From a virus (Duplodnaviria; Heunggongvirae; Uroviricota; Caudoviricetes), in IMG/VR virus record IMGVR_UViG_3300001336_000001, positions 1-42,835 of that record: a DNA stretch of 42,835 bases; one strand, 5' to 3'. Below, one piece after another: positions 36,995-42,214 of this stretch. A program made the position numbers and the translations under genes. How positions within the stretch are numbered: position 1 is the first letter of the stretch; every line of letters begins with the position of its first letter. The notes under the pieces were generated by a model. The model saw only the letters and a list, made by a program, of their open reading frames with translations, had not been told where the DNA came from and searched no databases.

Positions 36995-37068
36995 GGGTTT
37001 GTAACTCAGTTGGTTAGAGTGCAACACTCATAATGTTGAAGCCCTAGGTTCGAGTCCTAGCTGACCCA
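36995..37068 (+). tRNA. tRNA with CAT anticodon (Ile2 or elongator Met, not initiator), no encoded CCA
   Basis: GGGTTTG/CTGACCC acceptor, ACTC/GAGT D-stem, CAACA-CTCATAA-TGTTG, CTAGG-TTCGAGT-CCTAG. Lacks initiator GGG/CCC pairs. Confidence 0.9.
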
Positions 37069-37564: not shown

Positions 37565-37638
37565 GCGCCCATAGCATAATTGGATAATGCATCTGCCTTC
37601 TAAGCAGACGAGTCCAGGTTCGAATCCTGGTGGGCGTA
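37565..37638 (+). tRNA. trnR: tRNA-Arg (TCT), no encoded CCA
   Basis: GCGCCCA/TGGGCGT acceptor, GCAT/ATGC D-stem, TCTGC-CTTCTAA-GCAGA, CCAGG-TTCGAAT-CCTGG. Confidence 0.95.
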
Positions 37639-39956: not shown

Positions 39957-40214
39957 TTAACCTTCAGTTTGGTTTATAAGTTCTTTTAATTGTTGTTCCA
40001 GATTTTCAATCTTTGATATGAGTTCGTCATATTTCTTTTGTGCTTGGATATCTGAAGCTGGGAAGTGTTTATTTTTTGTGTTATAGAAACTTGCCATATC
40101 TTTATCTAGTTGATGGAAGTGCCAAAAATATTTTTTTAATGATTTAAGTTCATTCAGTTCTTTTTTTAGTCGTTTTCTCCCCAAACCACTTATTTTATAT
40201 ATTGATTTATTCAT
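39957..40214 (-). CDS. Small coiled-coil hypothetical protein
   Basis: Promoter TATCTTTG at 40258-40265. Confidence 0.65.
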   Translation of the reverse strand: MNKSIYKISGLGRKRLKKELNELKSLKKYFWHFHQLDKDMASFYNTKNKHFPASDIQAQKKYDELISKIENLEQQLKELINQTEG

Positions 40215-40355
40215 TTATTTATTATTAACCTTAAATTATGTTATTTTTTAATTTAAGCAAAGATAGTGATAATATTTTAATTATGTGGATTAATTTAAAA
40301 AAAAATTCCCTTACGGATTTATATAATTACCAGCTCAGTTATTAGCAGTTATTAG

Positions 40356-40672
40356 TTGTGGTTATTACCAACTGTTTCACGCTTTTTGTTTCGAGTAACC
40401 ATGTTGGATATACCTTTCAAATTGTGGTTATTACCAACAACACAAATTAAATAACGATGATAGTATTCGTTGGATATACCTTTCAAATTGTGGTTATTAC
40501 CAACAACACCCATTGGATTACGTTGGATATACCTTTCAAATTGTGGTTATTACCAACATTATTTGATGAGCATCTTCAAGCACAATCGTTGGATATACCT
40601 TTCAAATTGTGGTTATTACCAACACAGATGAATTTTATTTGTAAATACTATTTGTTGGATATACCTTTCAAA
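40356..40672 (-). CRISPR. CRISPR mini-array: four full 36-nt repeats, two terminal half-repeats, five spacers (30, 30, 17, 30, 30 nt)
   Basis: Plus-strand repeat GTTGGATATACCTTTCAAATTGTGGTTATTACCAAC at 40403, 40469, 40522 and 40588. The 17-nt half is at 40356-40372 and the 19-nt half at 40654-40672. Confidence 0.95.
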
Positions 40673-40820
40673 GCAAACCAATTGTCGGGGTATTTACCGA
40701 GTGCGTTATATATAATATATCTATTATCTTTCATATATTAATTAGTTATTAACACCTCAGTTTAAGGCTGTCCAACCAGCCCGACATTTAAGTCAAAATA
40801 TCAAAGAACTTTTTTCTTTA
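40673..40820 (-). ncRNA. Putative tracrRNA/omegaRNA-like scaffold fused to the first CRISPR half-repeat
   Basis: Own promoter TATATTTG at 40826-40833. Stems ATGTCGGG/CCCGACA, GCTG-GTTGGA-CAGC, ACTGAGGTGTTA/TAACGCACTCGGT and TAATATAT/ATATATTA. The loop GTTGGA is complementary to the repeat 3' end TCCAAC. Confidence 0.7.
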
Positions 40821-40844
40821 TAGTACAAATATAGTAATTATTTT

Positions 40845-42134
40845 TTATACTTTCAACAATTCTGTTTCTTTTTTTTCTTTATTTTTTGAATATTTTTCAA
40901 TTTGTTTTATATAATCTTTCGTATGTGCGATTGATATATTTTTTGATGCATTAAAATCTGCGTTATCTTCGAAGTCACAATTCTGACATTTAAATTTTGA
41001 TTGCGATATTCTATTATCTTCATGTATATGACCACAATTTGAACATCTTTGTGATGAATACCTTGGGTTGATTAAATTAACGGTTATTCCGTATTTTTTT
41101 GCTTTATATTTAATCATTGTCTGCAATTCATGATATGACCAGTTTCTTAGAATGAATGAATTTTTTTCATCTTTACCAATACCTTTTAGGTTTTCGATAT
41201 TTATGATTGCGCAGTTATTTTTAATTGCTGCATTAATAATTTCTTTTGATATTGTATGGTTCATTGTTTTTGCAAAATTTCTTTCTTTGATTCCCAAAGA
41301 GTCGAGTTTTTGCATTTTTTTAGTTCGACCTTTACCACCATTTGTATATTTAAGATTTTTGCTAATATTTTTTCTTTGTTTTTGTATTGCTAATCTTACT
41401 TGTAAAAATGATTCTGAACACCCTATTGCTTGTCTAAATTTTTTATTAGTATTAACTGACACGTATGCTGGGTGTGTAATACCTAAATCCACACCTAAGA
41501 CATTATCCTCAATGAGGTTTACTTTTGTTTGGGGTATATCAACAACCATTAACATGAATAATTTATTATCATAGAATTTAAAAGACGAATCACACATTTT
41601 ATATTGGCCAGATATAACTTTATCAACAATTTCCCTATTATTTGACCTATCTCTTCCGAATTTCATTCTAAATGGGATTGAAAAGAATTCAAATGAAGCT
41701 CCAGAATCGTCCATTTGTAAACCTCTAATCGATTTTGACATAAATAATAATGGGAAATCTTTTTTATAAGAGATTATTGATGATTCACCTTTAAGAACAT
41801 CCTTTATGGAGTTTCCAAAATTTGAGAATACGTAAGAATTTATACAACTTCTATAAGATGATGGTAATGTTTCTCTATATTTTTGTGCAAATACTTTATA
41901 ACCCAAATTTCTTTTTGAGGTCTCCAAATATTCATTTAATGATTTTTTGTTACTTGGGTCAATATCTTTATTAATACTATCTAAGAAATAAGTTGACTGC
42001 AAAAGATTCATTATATCATTTGCGTAATTCCTAGATGTATTTGACCAATCCCTAAGGGTTTTATAAAATTCTTTTTTTAGTTCAGTATTTGATTCAGAAA
42101 CGAAGACTTCTATTTTTCTTGTTATTACACTCAT
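40845..42134 (-). CDS. cas12f: Cas12f-family (type V-F/TnpB-derived) miniature RNA-guided nuclease
   Basis: 429 aa. RuvC triad D216 (GVDLG), E314 (IENL) and D393 (NADFNA) is intact. Zn finger CSNC…CQNC. Collinear similarity by eye to AsCas12f1 (SYKKDFPL, NWSYHELQ, YSSQRCS). Adjacent to a CRISPR array. Promoter at 42154-42161. Confidence 0.85.
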   Translation of the reverse strand: MSVITRKIEVFVSESNTELKKEFYKTLRDWSNTSRNYANDIMNLLQSTYFLDSINKDIDPSNKKSLNEYLETSKRNLGYKVFAQKYRETLPSSYRSCINSYVFSNFGNSIKDVLKGESSIISYKKDFPLLFMSKSIRGLQMDDSGASFEFFSIPFRMKFGRDRSNNREIVDKVISGQYKMCDSSFKFYDNKLFMLMVVDIPQTKVNLIEDNVLGVDLGITHPAYVSVNTNKKFRQAIGCSESFLQVRLAIQKQRKNISKNLKYTNGGKGRTKKMQKLDSLGIKERNFAKTMNHTISKEIINAAIKNNCAIINIENLKGIGKDEKNSFILRNWSYHELQTMIKYKAKKYGITVNLINPRYSSQRCSNCGHIHEDNRISQSKFKCQNCDFEDNADFNASKNISIAHTKDYIKQIEKYSKNKEKKETELLKV

Positions 42135-42214
42135 GATTTTTATTTTAGTTTTACAAATATAAGAATAATATTTTAATTATGCAAATTAATTTTTAAATTT
42201 TGATTTATTTGTTT

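What the first reader, a model, noticed from the sequence alone, without database searches (positions are those of the whole stretch)
40356..42161. Phage Cas12f with a natural scaffold-repeat fusion: candidate TnpB-to-CRISPR intermediate
A catalytically intact 429-aa Cas12f-like nuclease is followed by a separate promoter and a ~150-nt RNA with four clear stems. This RNA runs without a break into the 3' 19 nt of the repeat and the first spacer, forming a natural single guide. Its hairpin loop GTTGGA is the exact complement of the repeat end TCCAAC next to the spacer. That matches the guide-proximal pseudoknot of TnpB omegaRNA and the short repeat:anti-repeat pairing of Cas12f (established architecture). 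No long anti-repeat is visible. In full repeats the 5' GTTGG can pair with the same CCAAC, so downstream spacers need either scaffold pairing in trans or promotion to the first position by recombination. This suggests a hybrid omegaRNA/CRISPR system with one expressed guide plus a reserve. There is no transposase, cas1/2 or sigma-factor neighbour, unlike IS605 elements or the nuclease-dead Cas12f regulators reported in Bacteroidota.
Basis: partly seen in the sequence, partly recalled or inferred. Interest (0 to 1): 0.92.

Follow-up and report, generated by a model that had tools for sequence, protein, structure and literature searches.

The report
Phage Cas12f with self-joined guide RNA
A 288-kb phage of Bacteroidota carries a small, intact CRISPR nuclease (Cas12f) whose helper RNA is joined directly to its first guide, much as engineers join them by hand; the joining is a late change inside a known Cas12f family, not a leftover from the transposon ancestor.

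Summary
A 429-aa Cas12f with an intact RuvC triad and zinc finger (40845-42134, minus strand) is followed by a near-consensus Bacteroidota promoter and a roughly 165-nt structured scaffold. The scaffold runs without a U-tract into the last 19 nt of a repeat and spacer 1. Four full repeats and a 17-nt terminal half repeat follow.

The scaffold is a homologue of the experimentally validated Al3Cas12f/Cas12f-MG119 tracrRNA, with the same GUUGGA loop and the same crRNA end AUAUCCAAC. Loop-to-repeat-end pairing takes five different complementary forms across relatives.

The evolutionary reading is not supported. On a protein tree the fused layout is confined to a derived phage clade. Deeper relatives and outgroups have separate tracrRNAs, and a second fusion arose independently in a nuclease-dead relative. 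The protein is a type V-F1 Cas12f, not a TnpB or a TranC.

New here: the repeats are 64-81% identical to type VI-B (Cas13b) repeats of Bacteroidota, and the phage has no cas1, cas2, tnpA or cas13b. Arrays differ between near-identical phages. Spacer targets and RNA ends are unknown.

This scan has noted tracrRNA-fused Cas12f mini-arrays in other phages before. Verdict: a new variant of a known kind, interest about 0.6.

The parts
42154..42185 (-). Bacteroidota-type promoter (TTTG-N20-TATATTTG) of cas12f
   Evidence: Exact match to the consensus pattern, which occurs 53 times in the window against 3.6 expected. It lies 20 nt upstream of the ATG at 42134.
40845..42134 (-). cas12f gene, 429 aa, type V-F1 (former V-U3) lineage, with intact RuvC D216/E314/D393 and a CCCC zinc finger
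40826..40857 (-). Promoter of the guide RNA: -33-like GTTG (40854-40857), 20-nt spacer, -7 box TATATTTG (40826-40833). The start of transcription is inferred near 40820.
   Evidence: Sequence. A TAnnTTTG box lies a few to about 30 nt after the stop codon in most close relatives. The sigma-70 scan also scores 10 of 12 here. The start site itself is inferred, not shown.
40803..40819 (-). 5' hairpin (AAAGAA/UUCUUU). It contains GUUCUUUGA, which is conserved as far as relatives of 36% identity and in a dCas12f-like guide RNA.
40766..40781 (-). P1 hairpin GGCUG-GUUGGA-CAGCC. The loop at 40771-40776 is the pseudoknot partner of the repeat end.
   Evidence: Compensatory changes at three stem pairs. 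Loop and repeat end co-vary. The loop is identical in the published Al3Cas12f sgRNA.
40697..40760 (-). P2 long stem (CUGAGGUG ... CGCACUCGG) with a conserved apical motif
   Evidence: Compensatory changes in the basal pairs. Alignment A2.
40689..40693 (-). Short anti-repeat AUACC, which pairs with GGUAU of every repeat
   Evidence: the anti-repeat co-varies with the repeat in L009, L261, L178 and L206. It sits where the anti-repeat of the published Al3/MG119 sgRNAs sits.
40673..40688 (-). Natural linker. Its CCGACA pairs with UGUCGG at 40781-40786 to form a closing stem. There is no U-tract.
   Evidence: Sequence. The same linker is in L253, L006 and L173, and L254 has a wobble variant. Unfused relatives L013, L255, L014, L176 and L178 have a U-tract here instead.
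40654..40672 (-). Fused 3' half repeat (the crRNA handle): GGUAU at 40661-40665, UCCAAC at 40654-40659
40624..40653 (-). Spacer 1 (30 nt), the guide of the natural single-guide RNA
   Evidence: No target was found.
40373..40623 (-). Four identical 36-nt repeats (40588-623, 40522-557, 40469-504, 40403-438) with spacers 2-5 (30, 17, 30, 30 nt). The repeat is of type VI-B-like form.
   Evidence: Similarity to Cas13b-linked repeats.
40356..40372 (-). Terminal 5' half repeat (17 nt). With the 19-nt proximal half it adds up to exactly 36 nt.
   Evidence: Terminal 5' half repeats also occur in L175 and L181.
40297..40305 (-). U9 tract after a weak hairpin: the likely end of the guide/array transcript
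   Evidence: Sequence only. The terminator scan did not call it.

Best explanation
This is a phage-borne type V-F1 CRISPR-Cas12f system with no adaptation genes.

The tracrRNA gene lies just downstream of cas12f and has its own host-type promoter. In this phage clade, the U-tract, the leader and the 5' half of the first repeat have been lost. The tracrRNA therefore continues through a 16-nt linker into the last 19 nt of a repeat and spacer 1. The result is a natural single-guide RNA with the same topology as laboratory Cas12f sgRNAs.

The RNA is held together by a 5-bp anti-repeat (AUACC:GGUAU) and a 6-bp pseudoknot (loop GUUGGA with repeat end UCCAAC).

Inferred steps:
- A Cas12f dimer loads this RNA and cuts PAM-flanked DNA that matches spacer 1, probably from rival phages or other mobile elements.
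- Transcription runs on through four full repeats. Their handles are identical and could pair with the same scaffold.
- Those handles are at a disadvantage. They come later in the transcript, and each is partly closed by the GUUGG:CCAAC pairing within its own repeat. Spacer 1 should therefore dominate.
- Recombination at repeats changes which spacer sits first.

The repeats belong to the Bacteroidota type VI-B-like family. This suggests the arrays were taken from, or are extended by, host CRISPR machinery.

Shown: anatomy, homology, covariation, the derived position of the fusion, and array variation between strains. Inferred: RNA ends, loading, cleavage, targets and use of the downstream spacers.
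For: Protein:
- A profile of 26 relatives matches Al3Cas12f (9NZO) at E = 2e-107. It also matches CnCas12f, AsCas12f and dCas12f.
- PADLOC Cas12f scores 9e-115.
- The catalytic residues and zinc-finger cysteines are invariant.

Scaffold:
- The published Al3Cas12f and MG119-3 sgRNAs have the same GUUGGA loop, the same ...GAGG / CACUC... framework and the same crRNA end AUAUCCAAC. They are made by joining the tracrRNA 3' end to the repeat 3' part with GAAA (PMC13186708 supplementary data).
- Ten of 18 stem pairs show compensatory changes.
- The pseudoknot takes five complementary forms and the anti-repeat several others.

Fusion:
- The same layout is found in relatives L253, L006, L173 (two modules), L009/L010, L254, L256 and L259.
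- Fused loci lack the U-tract that follows the anti-repeat in unfused L013, L255, L014, L176 and L178.
- In L254 the loop GUUGGU matches the fused handle ACCAAC perfectly, but the array repeats only 5 of 6.
- The genome holds only one scaffold copy.

Derived state: tree; 3 state changes. The dCas12f-like L206 has an independent fusion.

Turnover:
- L009 and L010 encode the identical protein but carry mosaic arrays.
- Near-identical genes in other metagenomes join the scaffold to other array positions.

Handle selection: the 3' half of repeats is 90% identical between loci, against 67% for the 5' half.

No cas1, cas2, tnpA or cas13b is in the genome.
Against: - No RNA data exist, so the start, the end and any cleavage in the linker are unknown.
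- No protospacer was found for any spacer, so neither a target nor a PAM is known.
- The promoter has one mismatch in its -33 box, and no canonical terminator was called.
- The closing stem is seen only in a subclade and shows only wobble variation.
- The fused handles of L253 and L173a carry a G-U in the pseudoknot while their array repeats pair perfectly. This does not favour the fused unit.
- The strong conservation of downstream handles suggests that downstream spacers are used too. That needs scaffold acting in trans, or cleavage of the fusion.
Confidence: 0.7

Rival explanations
1. This is an ordinary dual-RNA system. The fused transcript is only a precursor. Host RNases or Cas12f cut the linker, which frees a standard tracrRNA that serves all five spacers equally. 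On this view the half repeat is just a damaged first repeat.
For: - Downstream repeats are identical, and their 3' handles are strongly conserved across loci.
- There is only one scaffold for five handles.
- Unfused relatives use the same 5-bp anti-repeat and 6-bp pseudoknot in trans.
Against: - Fused loci have specifically lost the U-tract.
- A subclade has gained a closing stem that ties the linker to the 5' part of the scaffold.
- The L254 loop matches its fused handle better than its array repeats.
- Engineered fusions of the same topology are active without cleavage (PMC13186708).
Confidence: 0.2
2. One reading: an evolutionary intermediate between the TnpB omegaRNA and CRISPR, in which the unsplit guide is ancestral and the array is a recent addition.
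For: - The single scaffold-guide RNA with a guide-proximal pseudoknot resembles an omegaRNA.
- No adaptation genes are present.
- The two half repeats add up to exactly 36 nt, which fits tandem duplication of a handle-guide unit.
Against: - The protein is nested among CRISPR-associated Cas12f. Unfused relatives branch below the fused clade.
- TnpB and TranC structures are remote matches.
- The NCBIfam IS200 TnpB model scores 77 bits against a cutoff of 425.
- The scaffold begins after the stop codon and has its own promoter.
- The repeats are standard 36-nt units with 30-nt spacers, of a host repeat family.
Confidence: 0.05
3. The locus is frozen or decaying. Only the fused guide works. It may act like a TnpB or dCas12f with a fixed target, perhaps in regulation, and the array is a relic that recombination is eroding.
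For: - Truncated units are common: a 17-nt spacer here, a 3-nt spacer in L006, and a 20-nt spacer plus partial repeat in L010.
- The truncated first repeat removes the usual site of spacer integration.
- The sister clade has evolved fixed single guides for regulation (PMC12259090).
Against: - The nuclease residues are intact and invariant.
- First spacers differ between close relatives, and arrays are mosaic, so there is no single fixed target.
- Downstream handles are conserved.
Confidence: 0.12
4. The array mainly acts on the host type VI-B system. Its Cas13b-type repeats let the transcript be bound or processed by host Cas13b, either as a decoy or to arm it against rival phages. Alternatively, they let host II-C Cas1-Cas2 add spacers.
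For: - The repeats are 64-78% identical to a repeat next to a bona fide Cas13b (PADLOC 4e-248).
- By hand count, the L175 repeat matches 29 of 36 positions of the Flavobacterium columnare CRISPR-2 repeat (PMC5395568). My own knowledge identifies that locus as the VI-B locus.
- The orientation, the 36-nt repeat length and the 30-nt spacers are the same.
- VI-B arrays are known to borrow II-C adaptation proteins (PMC8092290).
Against: - The scaffold co-varies with the repeat, so Cas12f is clearly the cognate user.
- Al3Cas12f from a cellular Bacteroidota genome has the same repeat end, so the likeness may simply be a shared Bacteroidota repeat family.
- The host, and whether it has Cas13b, are unknown.
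Confidence: 0.1

Closest known systems
Type V-F1 CRISPR-Cas12f of the Al3Cas12f / Cas12f-MG119 family (Alistipes; PDB 9NZO, 9NZR; PMC13186708)
   Same: - It is the best structural-database match (E = 2e-107).
- The tracrRNA framework is the same, with an identical GUUGGA loop.
- The crRNA end is the same, AUAUCCAAC, and the anti-repeat sits at the same place.
- The laboratory sgRNA has the same topology as the natural RNA here.
   Different: - Here the join is natural: a 16-nt linker instead of GAAA.
- The anti-repeat is only 5 bp, against 8-9 bp.
- The protein is shorter: 429 aa against 433-488 aa reported for the MG119 family and 506-508-aa chains in the solved Al3Cas12f entries.
- The system sits in a 288-kb phage without adaptation genes.
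- Its activity is untested.
Nuclease-dead Cas12f with single chimeric guide RNAs in Bacteroidota (dCas12f-sigmaE; PMC12259090; PDB 9N9C)
   Same: - It is the sister clade on the tree.
- Its guide is a single scaffold-plus-guide RNA with no separate tracrRNA.
- The modules are the same, and GUUCUUUGA is conserved in a dCas12f-like guide RNA.
- L206 in that clade also fuses the scaffold to a partial repeat ahead of an array.
   Different: - Here RuvC and the zinc finger are intact.
- The protein is full length.
- There is no sigma factor or HTH neighbour.
- Guides are 30 nt, not 14-16 nt.
- The element is a phage.
- The fusion arose independently.
TnpB with omegaRNA (IS200/IS605), and TranC transposon-CRISPR intermediates
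   Same: A single RNA carries both scaffold and guide, there is a pseudoknot next to the guide, and the RuvC nuclease is compact.
   Different: - The protein is only remotely similar: ISDra2 TnpB 2e-8 and LaTranC 3.5e-10.
- There is no TnpA and no transposon ends.
- The scaffold does not overlap the ORF.
- The guide is a spacer inside a repeat array.
- The fused state is derived.
Type VI-B (Cas13b) CRISPR arrays of Bacteroidota
   Same: The repeat is 36 nt with GUUG...CAAC paired ends and a central UUUGAAAGGUA, spacers are 30 nt, the repeat sits in the same orientation downstream of the effector gene, and the locus has no cas1/cas2.
   Different: The phage has no Cas13b. The repeats are read from their 3' end by a Cas12f scaffold.
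CRISPR-Cas systems of huge phages that lack adaptation modules (Cas12j/CasPhi, Cas-lambda, phage Cas12f-like; general knowledge, and PMC11748809)
   Same: A compact type V effector with a small array sits in a large phage without cas1/cas2. Its presumed role is conflict with other mobile elements.
   Different: Those systems use crRNA alone or a separate tracrRNA. I found no description of a natural tracrRNA-repeat fusion for a nuclease-active phage Cas12f in the papers I searched.

Membership tests
Type V-F1 CRISPR-Cas12f (Al3Cas12f/AsCas12f lineage, former V-U3) | Effector homologous to Cas12f, with the RuvC D-E-D triad and a CCCC zinc finger | tested here: met
   E = 2e-107 to 9NZO; PADLOC Cas12f 9e-115 and Cas12u3 3e-110; D216/E314/D393 and four Cys invariant.
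Type V-F1 CRISPR-Cas12f (Al3Cas12f/AsCas12f lineage, former V-U3) | tracrRNA-type scaffold that pairs with the repeat 3' part through an anti-repeat and a pseudoknot loop | tested here: met
   Covariation. Motifs are shared with the published Al3/MG119 sgRNAs.
Type V-F1 CRISPR-Cas12f (Al3Cas12f/AsCas12f lineage, former V-U3) | Adjacent CRISPR array transcribed in the repeat-then-spacer direction | tested here: met
   The orientation follows from scaffold complementarity and the promoter strand. Transcription itself is not shown.
Type V-F1 CRISPR-Cas12f (Al3Cas12f/AsCas12f lineage, former V-U3) | tracrRNA and crRNA are separate molecules | tested here: inconclusive
   The DNA encodes them as one unit for spacer 1, with no U-tract between them. 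Whether the RNA is later cut cannot be told without RNA data (one search listed no RNA run).
Type V-F1 CRISPR-Cas12f (Al3Cas12f/AsCas12f lineage, former V-U3) | PAM-dependent RNA-guided dsDNA cleavage by a homodimer | not testable with these tools
   No protospacers were found. The dimer was not modelled.
TnpB/omegaRNA of IS200/IS605 | omegaRNA overlaps the 3' end of tnpB and ends at the transposon right end, with the guide being flanking DNA | tested here: not met
   The scaffold starts after the stop codon, behind its own promoter. The guide is followed by repeats.
TnpB/omegaRNA of IS200/IS605 | Protein belongs to the TnpB families; TnpA or transposon ends are present | tested here: not met
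   The NCBIfam IS200_TnpB model scores 77 bits against a cutoff of 425. No Y1 transposase is in the genome.
TranC (transposon-CRISPR intermediates) | Effector close to IS605/IS607 TnpB lineages, using both right-end RNA and CRISPR RNA | tested here: not met
   LaTranC is a remote match of 3.5e-10 over about 110 residues. Use of two kinds of RNA is not testable here.
dCas12f-sigmaE RNA-guided transcription systems | Nuclease-dead, C-terminally truncated Cas12f with an ECF sigma factor as neighbour | tested here: not met
   The C-terminus and active site are intact. The two immediate neighbours have no significant Pfam family.
dCas12f-sigmaE RNA-guided transcription systems | Single chimeric guide RNA (scaffold plus guide) | tested here: met
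   Met at the DNA level for spacer 1. Compare PMC12259090.
Type VI-B CRISPR array | 36-nt GTTG...CAAC repeat of the Bacteroidota VI-B family with 30-nt spacers | tested here: met
   Repeats are 64-78% identical to a Cas13b-adjacent repeat. By hand count, L175 matches 29 of 36 positions of F. columnare CRISPR-2.
Type VI-B CRISPR array | Cas13b effector in the same genome | tested here: not met
   No match in the complete phage genome. That search's control genomes also gave no hit, so this is weak evidence.

The most novel reading that the evidence does not exclude
The phage Cas12f has adapted its scaffold to read host-type (type VI-B-like) repeats. On this reading, the phage keeps a constitutively armed natural single guide and draws its spacer supply from host CRISPR resources. 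It would do so either by capturing pieces of host arrays through recombination at repeats, or by letting host II-C Cas1-Cas2 add spacers in trans. The same transcript might also be recognised by host Cas13b. That would make it a CRISPR system that lives parasitically on the host's own CRISPR repeat family.
Probability: 0.2. Interest if true: 0.8.

Novelty: new variant of a known kind. Interest (0 to 1): 0.6.

Why it matters
- It shows that nature has made, in a nuclease-active Cas12f, the same tracrRNA-crRNA join that engineers make. The join has arisen more than once in this lineage. Guide RNA architecture in type V systems therefore moves in both directions (split and re-fused), which cautions against reading every fused guide as ancestral.
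- It offers a very small candidate editor: 429 aa with a ready-made single guide of about 165 nt, plus a set of natural linker variants.
- The fused and unfused relatives, some with identical proteins, form a natural series. They could be used to test how one scaffold chooses between a handle in cis and handles further down the transcript.
- The likeness of the repeats to Cas13b repeats raises a testable question: how do phages without cas1/cas2 obtain and renew spacers?

Tried and rejected
- Spacer targets. No protospacer turned up in the phage's own genome; the only hit was a 17-nt AT-rich partial match of spacer 1 at 263226-263242. None turned up in the phage record collection. IMG/VR gave no exact match for 23-mers of spacers 2 and 5. 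None of 106 spacers from related arrays matched this genome or the fetched loci.
- RNA evidence. No RNA holder was listed for this stretch, so expression and RNA ends could not be examined.
- A candidate long anti-repeat inside the ORF (41028-41043, the zinc-finger codons) was unusual against shuffles. It is absent from every relative, so I rejected it as a conserved feature.
- The first scan of viral contigs with the single protein found nothing. The alignment-based scans gave mostly distant relatives. Close relatives came from exact-protein look-ups. One of these (P0013) had no DNA on file.
- Single matches to the repeat 3' part in many Bacteroidia genomes lie inside a conserved protein-coding gene and are unrelated.
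- The terminator scan called nothing.
- Rfam holds no family for the scaffold; the window gave tRNAs only.
- I did not run structure prediction or dimer modelling, because sequence homology to solved Cas12f structures was already decisive.
Full report
**Setting.** The window is the first 42.8 kb of a complete 287,855-bp phage genome with direct terminal repeats. The host-type promoter TTTG-N17-21-TAnnTTTG occurs 53 times in the window against 3.6 expected. Most genes here are small ORFs on the minus strand without Pfam families.

**The observation.**
- The ORF at 40845-42134 (-) encodes 429 aa. It matches Pfam Cas12f1-like_TNB at 8e-24, NCBIfam guided_TnpB and PADLOC Cas12f at 9e-115 and Cas12u3 at 3e-110.
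- In an alignment of 26 relatives of 41-90% identity, D216, E314, D393 and C364/C367/C383/C386 are invariant. The nuclease looks intact.
- A consensus host promoter lies at 42154-42185 (-), just before the gene.
- A second, near-consensus promoter (GTTG-N20-TATATTTG, 40826-40857) starts 12 nt after the stop codon.
- Read on the minus strand, what follows is: a 5' hairpin; the hairpin GGCUG-GUUGGA-CAGCC; a long stem; AUACC; a 16-nt linker; the last 19 nt of the repeat; spacer 1; four identical 36-nt repeats with spacers of 30, 17, 30 and 30 nt; and a 17-nt 5' half repeat.
- The 167-nt scaffold plus handle folds better than 199 of 200 shuffles.

**What the scaffold is.**
- A profile of the protein family matches solved Cas12f structures best: Al3Cas12f at 2e-107, then CnCas12f, RhCas12f, AsCas12f and dCas12f. 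ISDra2 TnpB (2e-8) and LaTranC (3.5e-10) are remote.
- The paper describing Al3Cas12f lists its working sgRNAs (PMC13186708). Al3Cas12f and MG119-3 have a hairpin with the same GUUGGA loop, the same ...GAGG / CACUC... frame, an anti-repeat at the tracrRNA 3' end, and a crRNA ending in AUAUCCAAC.
- Those sgRNAs are made by joining the tracrRNA 3' end to the repeat 3' part with GAAA. The RNA encoded here has that same topology, with a natural linker.
AUACC (40689-40693) pairs with GGUAU (40661-40665).

**Relatives and covariation.**
- The protein has 811 relatives with E below 0.001. The close ones come only from metagenomes and viral contigs. The best matches in cellular genomes are 26-44% identical over their best segment.
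- I fetched the DNA of about 20 loci.
- An alignment of 15 scaffolds gives a consensus structure in which 10 of 18 pairs keep pairing through changes on both sides.
- The loop and the repeat end change together: GUUGGA:UCCAAC, GUUGUA:UACAAC, GUUAUA:UAUAAC, GUUGGU:ACCAAC and GUUUCA:UGAAAC.
- The anti-repeat changes with the repeat too: AUACC:GGUAU, AUAUC:GGUGU, AUUGCU:AGCAAU, GCUUUC:GAAAGC and GUCGCU:AGCGAC.
- This establishes the strand, the pairing scheme, and that Cas12f is the cognate user of these repeats.

**The fusion is real and shared.**
- Relatives L253 (90% identity), L006, L173 (two complete modules in tandem), L009/L010, L254, L256 and L259 all run from the anti-repeat through a short linker into a partial repeat and a first spacer.
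- Relatives L013, L255, L014, L176 and L178 instead have a U-tract right after the anti-repeat, then a gap and a full first repeat. L181 also has a separate scaffold. L174, L175 and L261 have a full repeat 12-17 nt after the anti-repeat.
- Loss of the U-tract only in the fused loci argues that transcription reads through.
- In L254 the loop matches the fused handle perfectly but the array repeats only 5 of 6.
- The genome has one scaffold only.

**Direction of evolution.**
- The tree was rooted on Firmicutes AsCas12f-type proteins. The fused loci fall in one derived clade of ten, with unfused L013/L255 nested inside it.
- L174/L175, L261/L014/L176, L177/L178 and L181 branch below that clade and are not fused.
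- The short, C-terminally truncated dCas12f-like proteins form a neighbouring clade. One of them, L206, has its own fusion ahead of an array.
- At least three changes of state are needed.
- This agrees with the published view that Cas12f guides split from an omegaRNA and later collapsed again into single guides in dCas12f (PMC12259090). It disagrees with the reading of this locus as a TnpB-to-CRISPR intermediate.

**Array dynamics.**
- L009 and L010 encode the same protein but share only one internal spacer and the terminal one, with different spacers on both sides. This points to exchange at repeats, not ordered addition at one end.
- Contigs from other metagenomes carry a near-identical gene (6-9 differences) but leave the window exactly at 40672, the border of scaffold and half repeat. 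One joins the scaffold to the next repeat and skips spacer 1. Another rejoins at 40559.
- Truncated units are frequent.
- Between loci, the 3' half of the repeat is 90% identical and the 5' half 67%. The handle is therefore under constraint in downstream repeats as well.

**Repeat family.**
- A search of 401 Bacteroidia-class genomes found one with true arrays of a similar repeat. That repeat lies directly downstream of a Cas13b gene (PADLOC 4e-248).
- The phage repeats are 64-78% identical to it. By hand count, L175 matches 29 of 36 positions of the Flavobacterium columnare CRISPR-2 repeat printed in PMC5395568. My own knowledge identifies that locus as the VI-B locus.
- VI-B arrays are known to gain spacers through II-C Cas1-Cas2 in trans (PMC8092290).
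- The phage has no cas1, cas2, tnpA or cas13b.
- Because Al3Cas12f shares the repeat end, the likeness may reflect a common Bacteroidota repeat family. It is still a concrete lead on where the spacers come from.
- Full repeats fold with their GUUGG and CCAAC ends paired. The fused handle lacks that 5' half.

**Mechanism, and how sure.**
- I hold at about 0.7 that the locus makes a natural single guide carrying spacer 1 for an active Cas12f, with the downstream units used less or serving as exchangeable stock.
- What is shown: the anatomy, the homology, the pairing, the derived state and the turnover.
- What is inferred: the RNA ends, loading, cleavage, the PAM, the targets and the fate of spacers 2-5.
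- No RNA run was listed and no target was found.

**Novelty.**
- Cas12f, its tracrRNA architecture, single chimeric guides in dCas12f, and adaptation-less CRISPR systems in large phages are all known.
- In the papers I searched, I found no description of a nuclease-active phage Cas12f whose tracrRNA is naturally fused to the first repeat of an array. Nor did I find one of Cas12f arrays with Cas13b-type repeats.
- Earlier notes of this scan report tracrRNA-fused Cas12f mini-arrays in other, mostly gut, phages, so the layout recurs.
- I class it as a new variant of a known kind.

Noticed in passing
G000:C1:72703-73884 (outside the window; L276:1378-2559, minus strand): The phage genome holds a second RNA-guided-nuclease gene: a classical IS200/IS605-type TnpB of 393 aa. 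It has no TnpA and no array beside it.
   Followed up: partly
window 41028-41043: A 16-nt stretch inside cas12f (the zinc-finger codons CSNCGH) is complementary to the middle of the repeat at 15 of 16 positions. No shuffle in 300 reached this, yet no relative has it. It may be chance, or a private mRNA-crRNA pairing.
   Followed up: yes
window 40356-40372 and 40654-40672: The two terminal half repeats (17 and 19 nt) add up to exactly one 36-nt repeat. Terminal 5' half repeats of 16-17 nt also end the arrays of L175 and L181. This suggests that the 5' half has a role at the 3' end of the last crRNA, or that there is a preferred recombination point.
   Followed up: partly
L173:1847-3100: A relative of 66% identity carries two complete modules in tandem downstream of one cas12f. 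Each module has a promoter, a scaffold, a fused handle and an array.
   Followed up: partly
L206:3788-4130: A nuclease-dead, C-terminally truncated Cas12f relative (430 aa) also has its scaffold fused to a partial repeat and first spacer ahead of a CRISPR array. The loop GUUGUA pairs with UACAAC, and the anti-repeat GUCGCU pairs with AGCGAC.
   Followed up: partly
L261:3802-5400: A relative of 48% identity has handle-like repeat ends at three separate places downstream of cas12f, with small ORFs between them. This suggests several arrays.
   Followed up: no
window 1-42835: There are 53 exact matches to the Bacteroidota promoter consensus TTTG-N17-21-TAnnTTTG, nearly all on the minus strand ahead of small ORFs, against 3.6 expected by chance.
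   Followed up: no
window 36995-37068 and 37565-37638: Two tRNA genes lie on the plus strand.
   Followed up: no
window 40241-40301 and 42137-42197: A 61-nt stretch upstream of cas12f and the stretch upstream of the next gene (39957-40214) are 74% identical. This is probably a shared promoter/5' leader cassette.
   Followed up: no
L274:2850-3200 and L275:2850-3200 (Bacteroidia genomes): The 21-mer AATTTGAAAGGCATAACCAAC recurs once per genome in many Bacteroidia. It lies inside a conserved protein-coding region and is unrelated to CRISPR, so it is a trap for repeat searches.
   Followed up: yes
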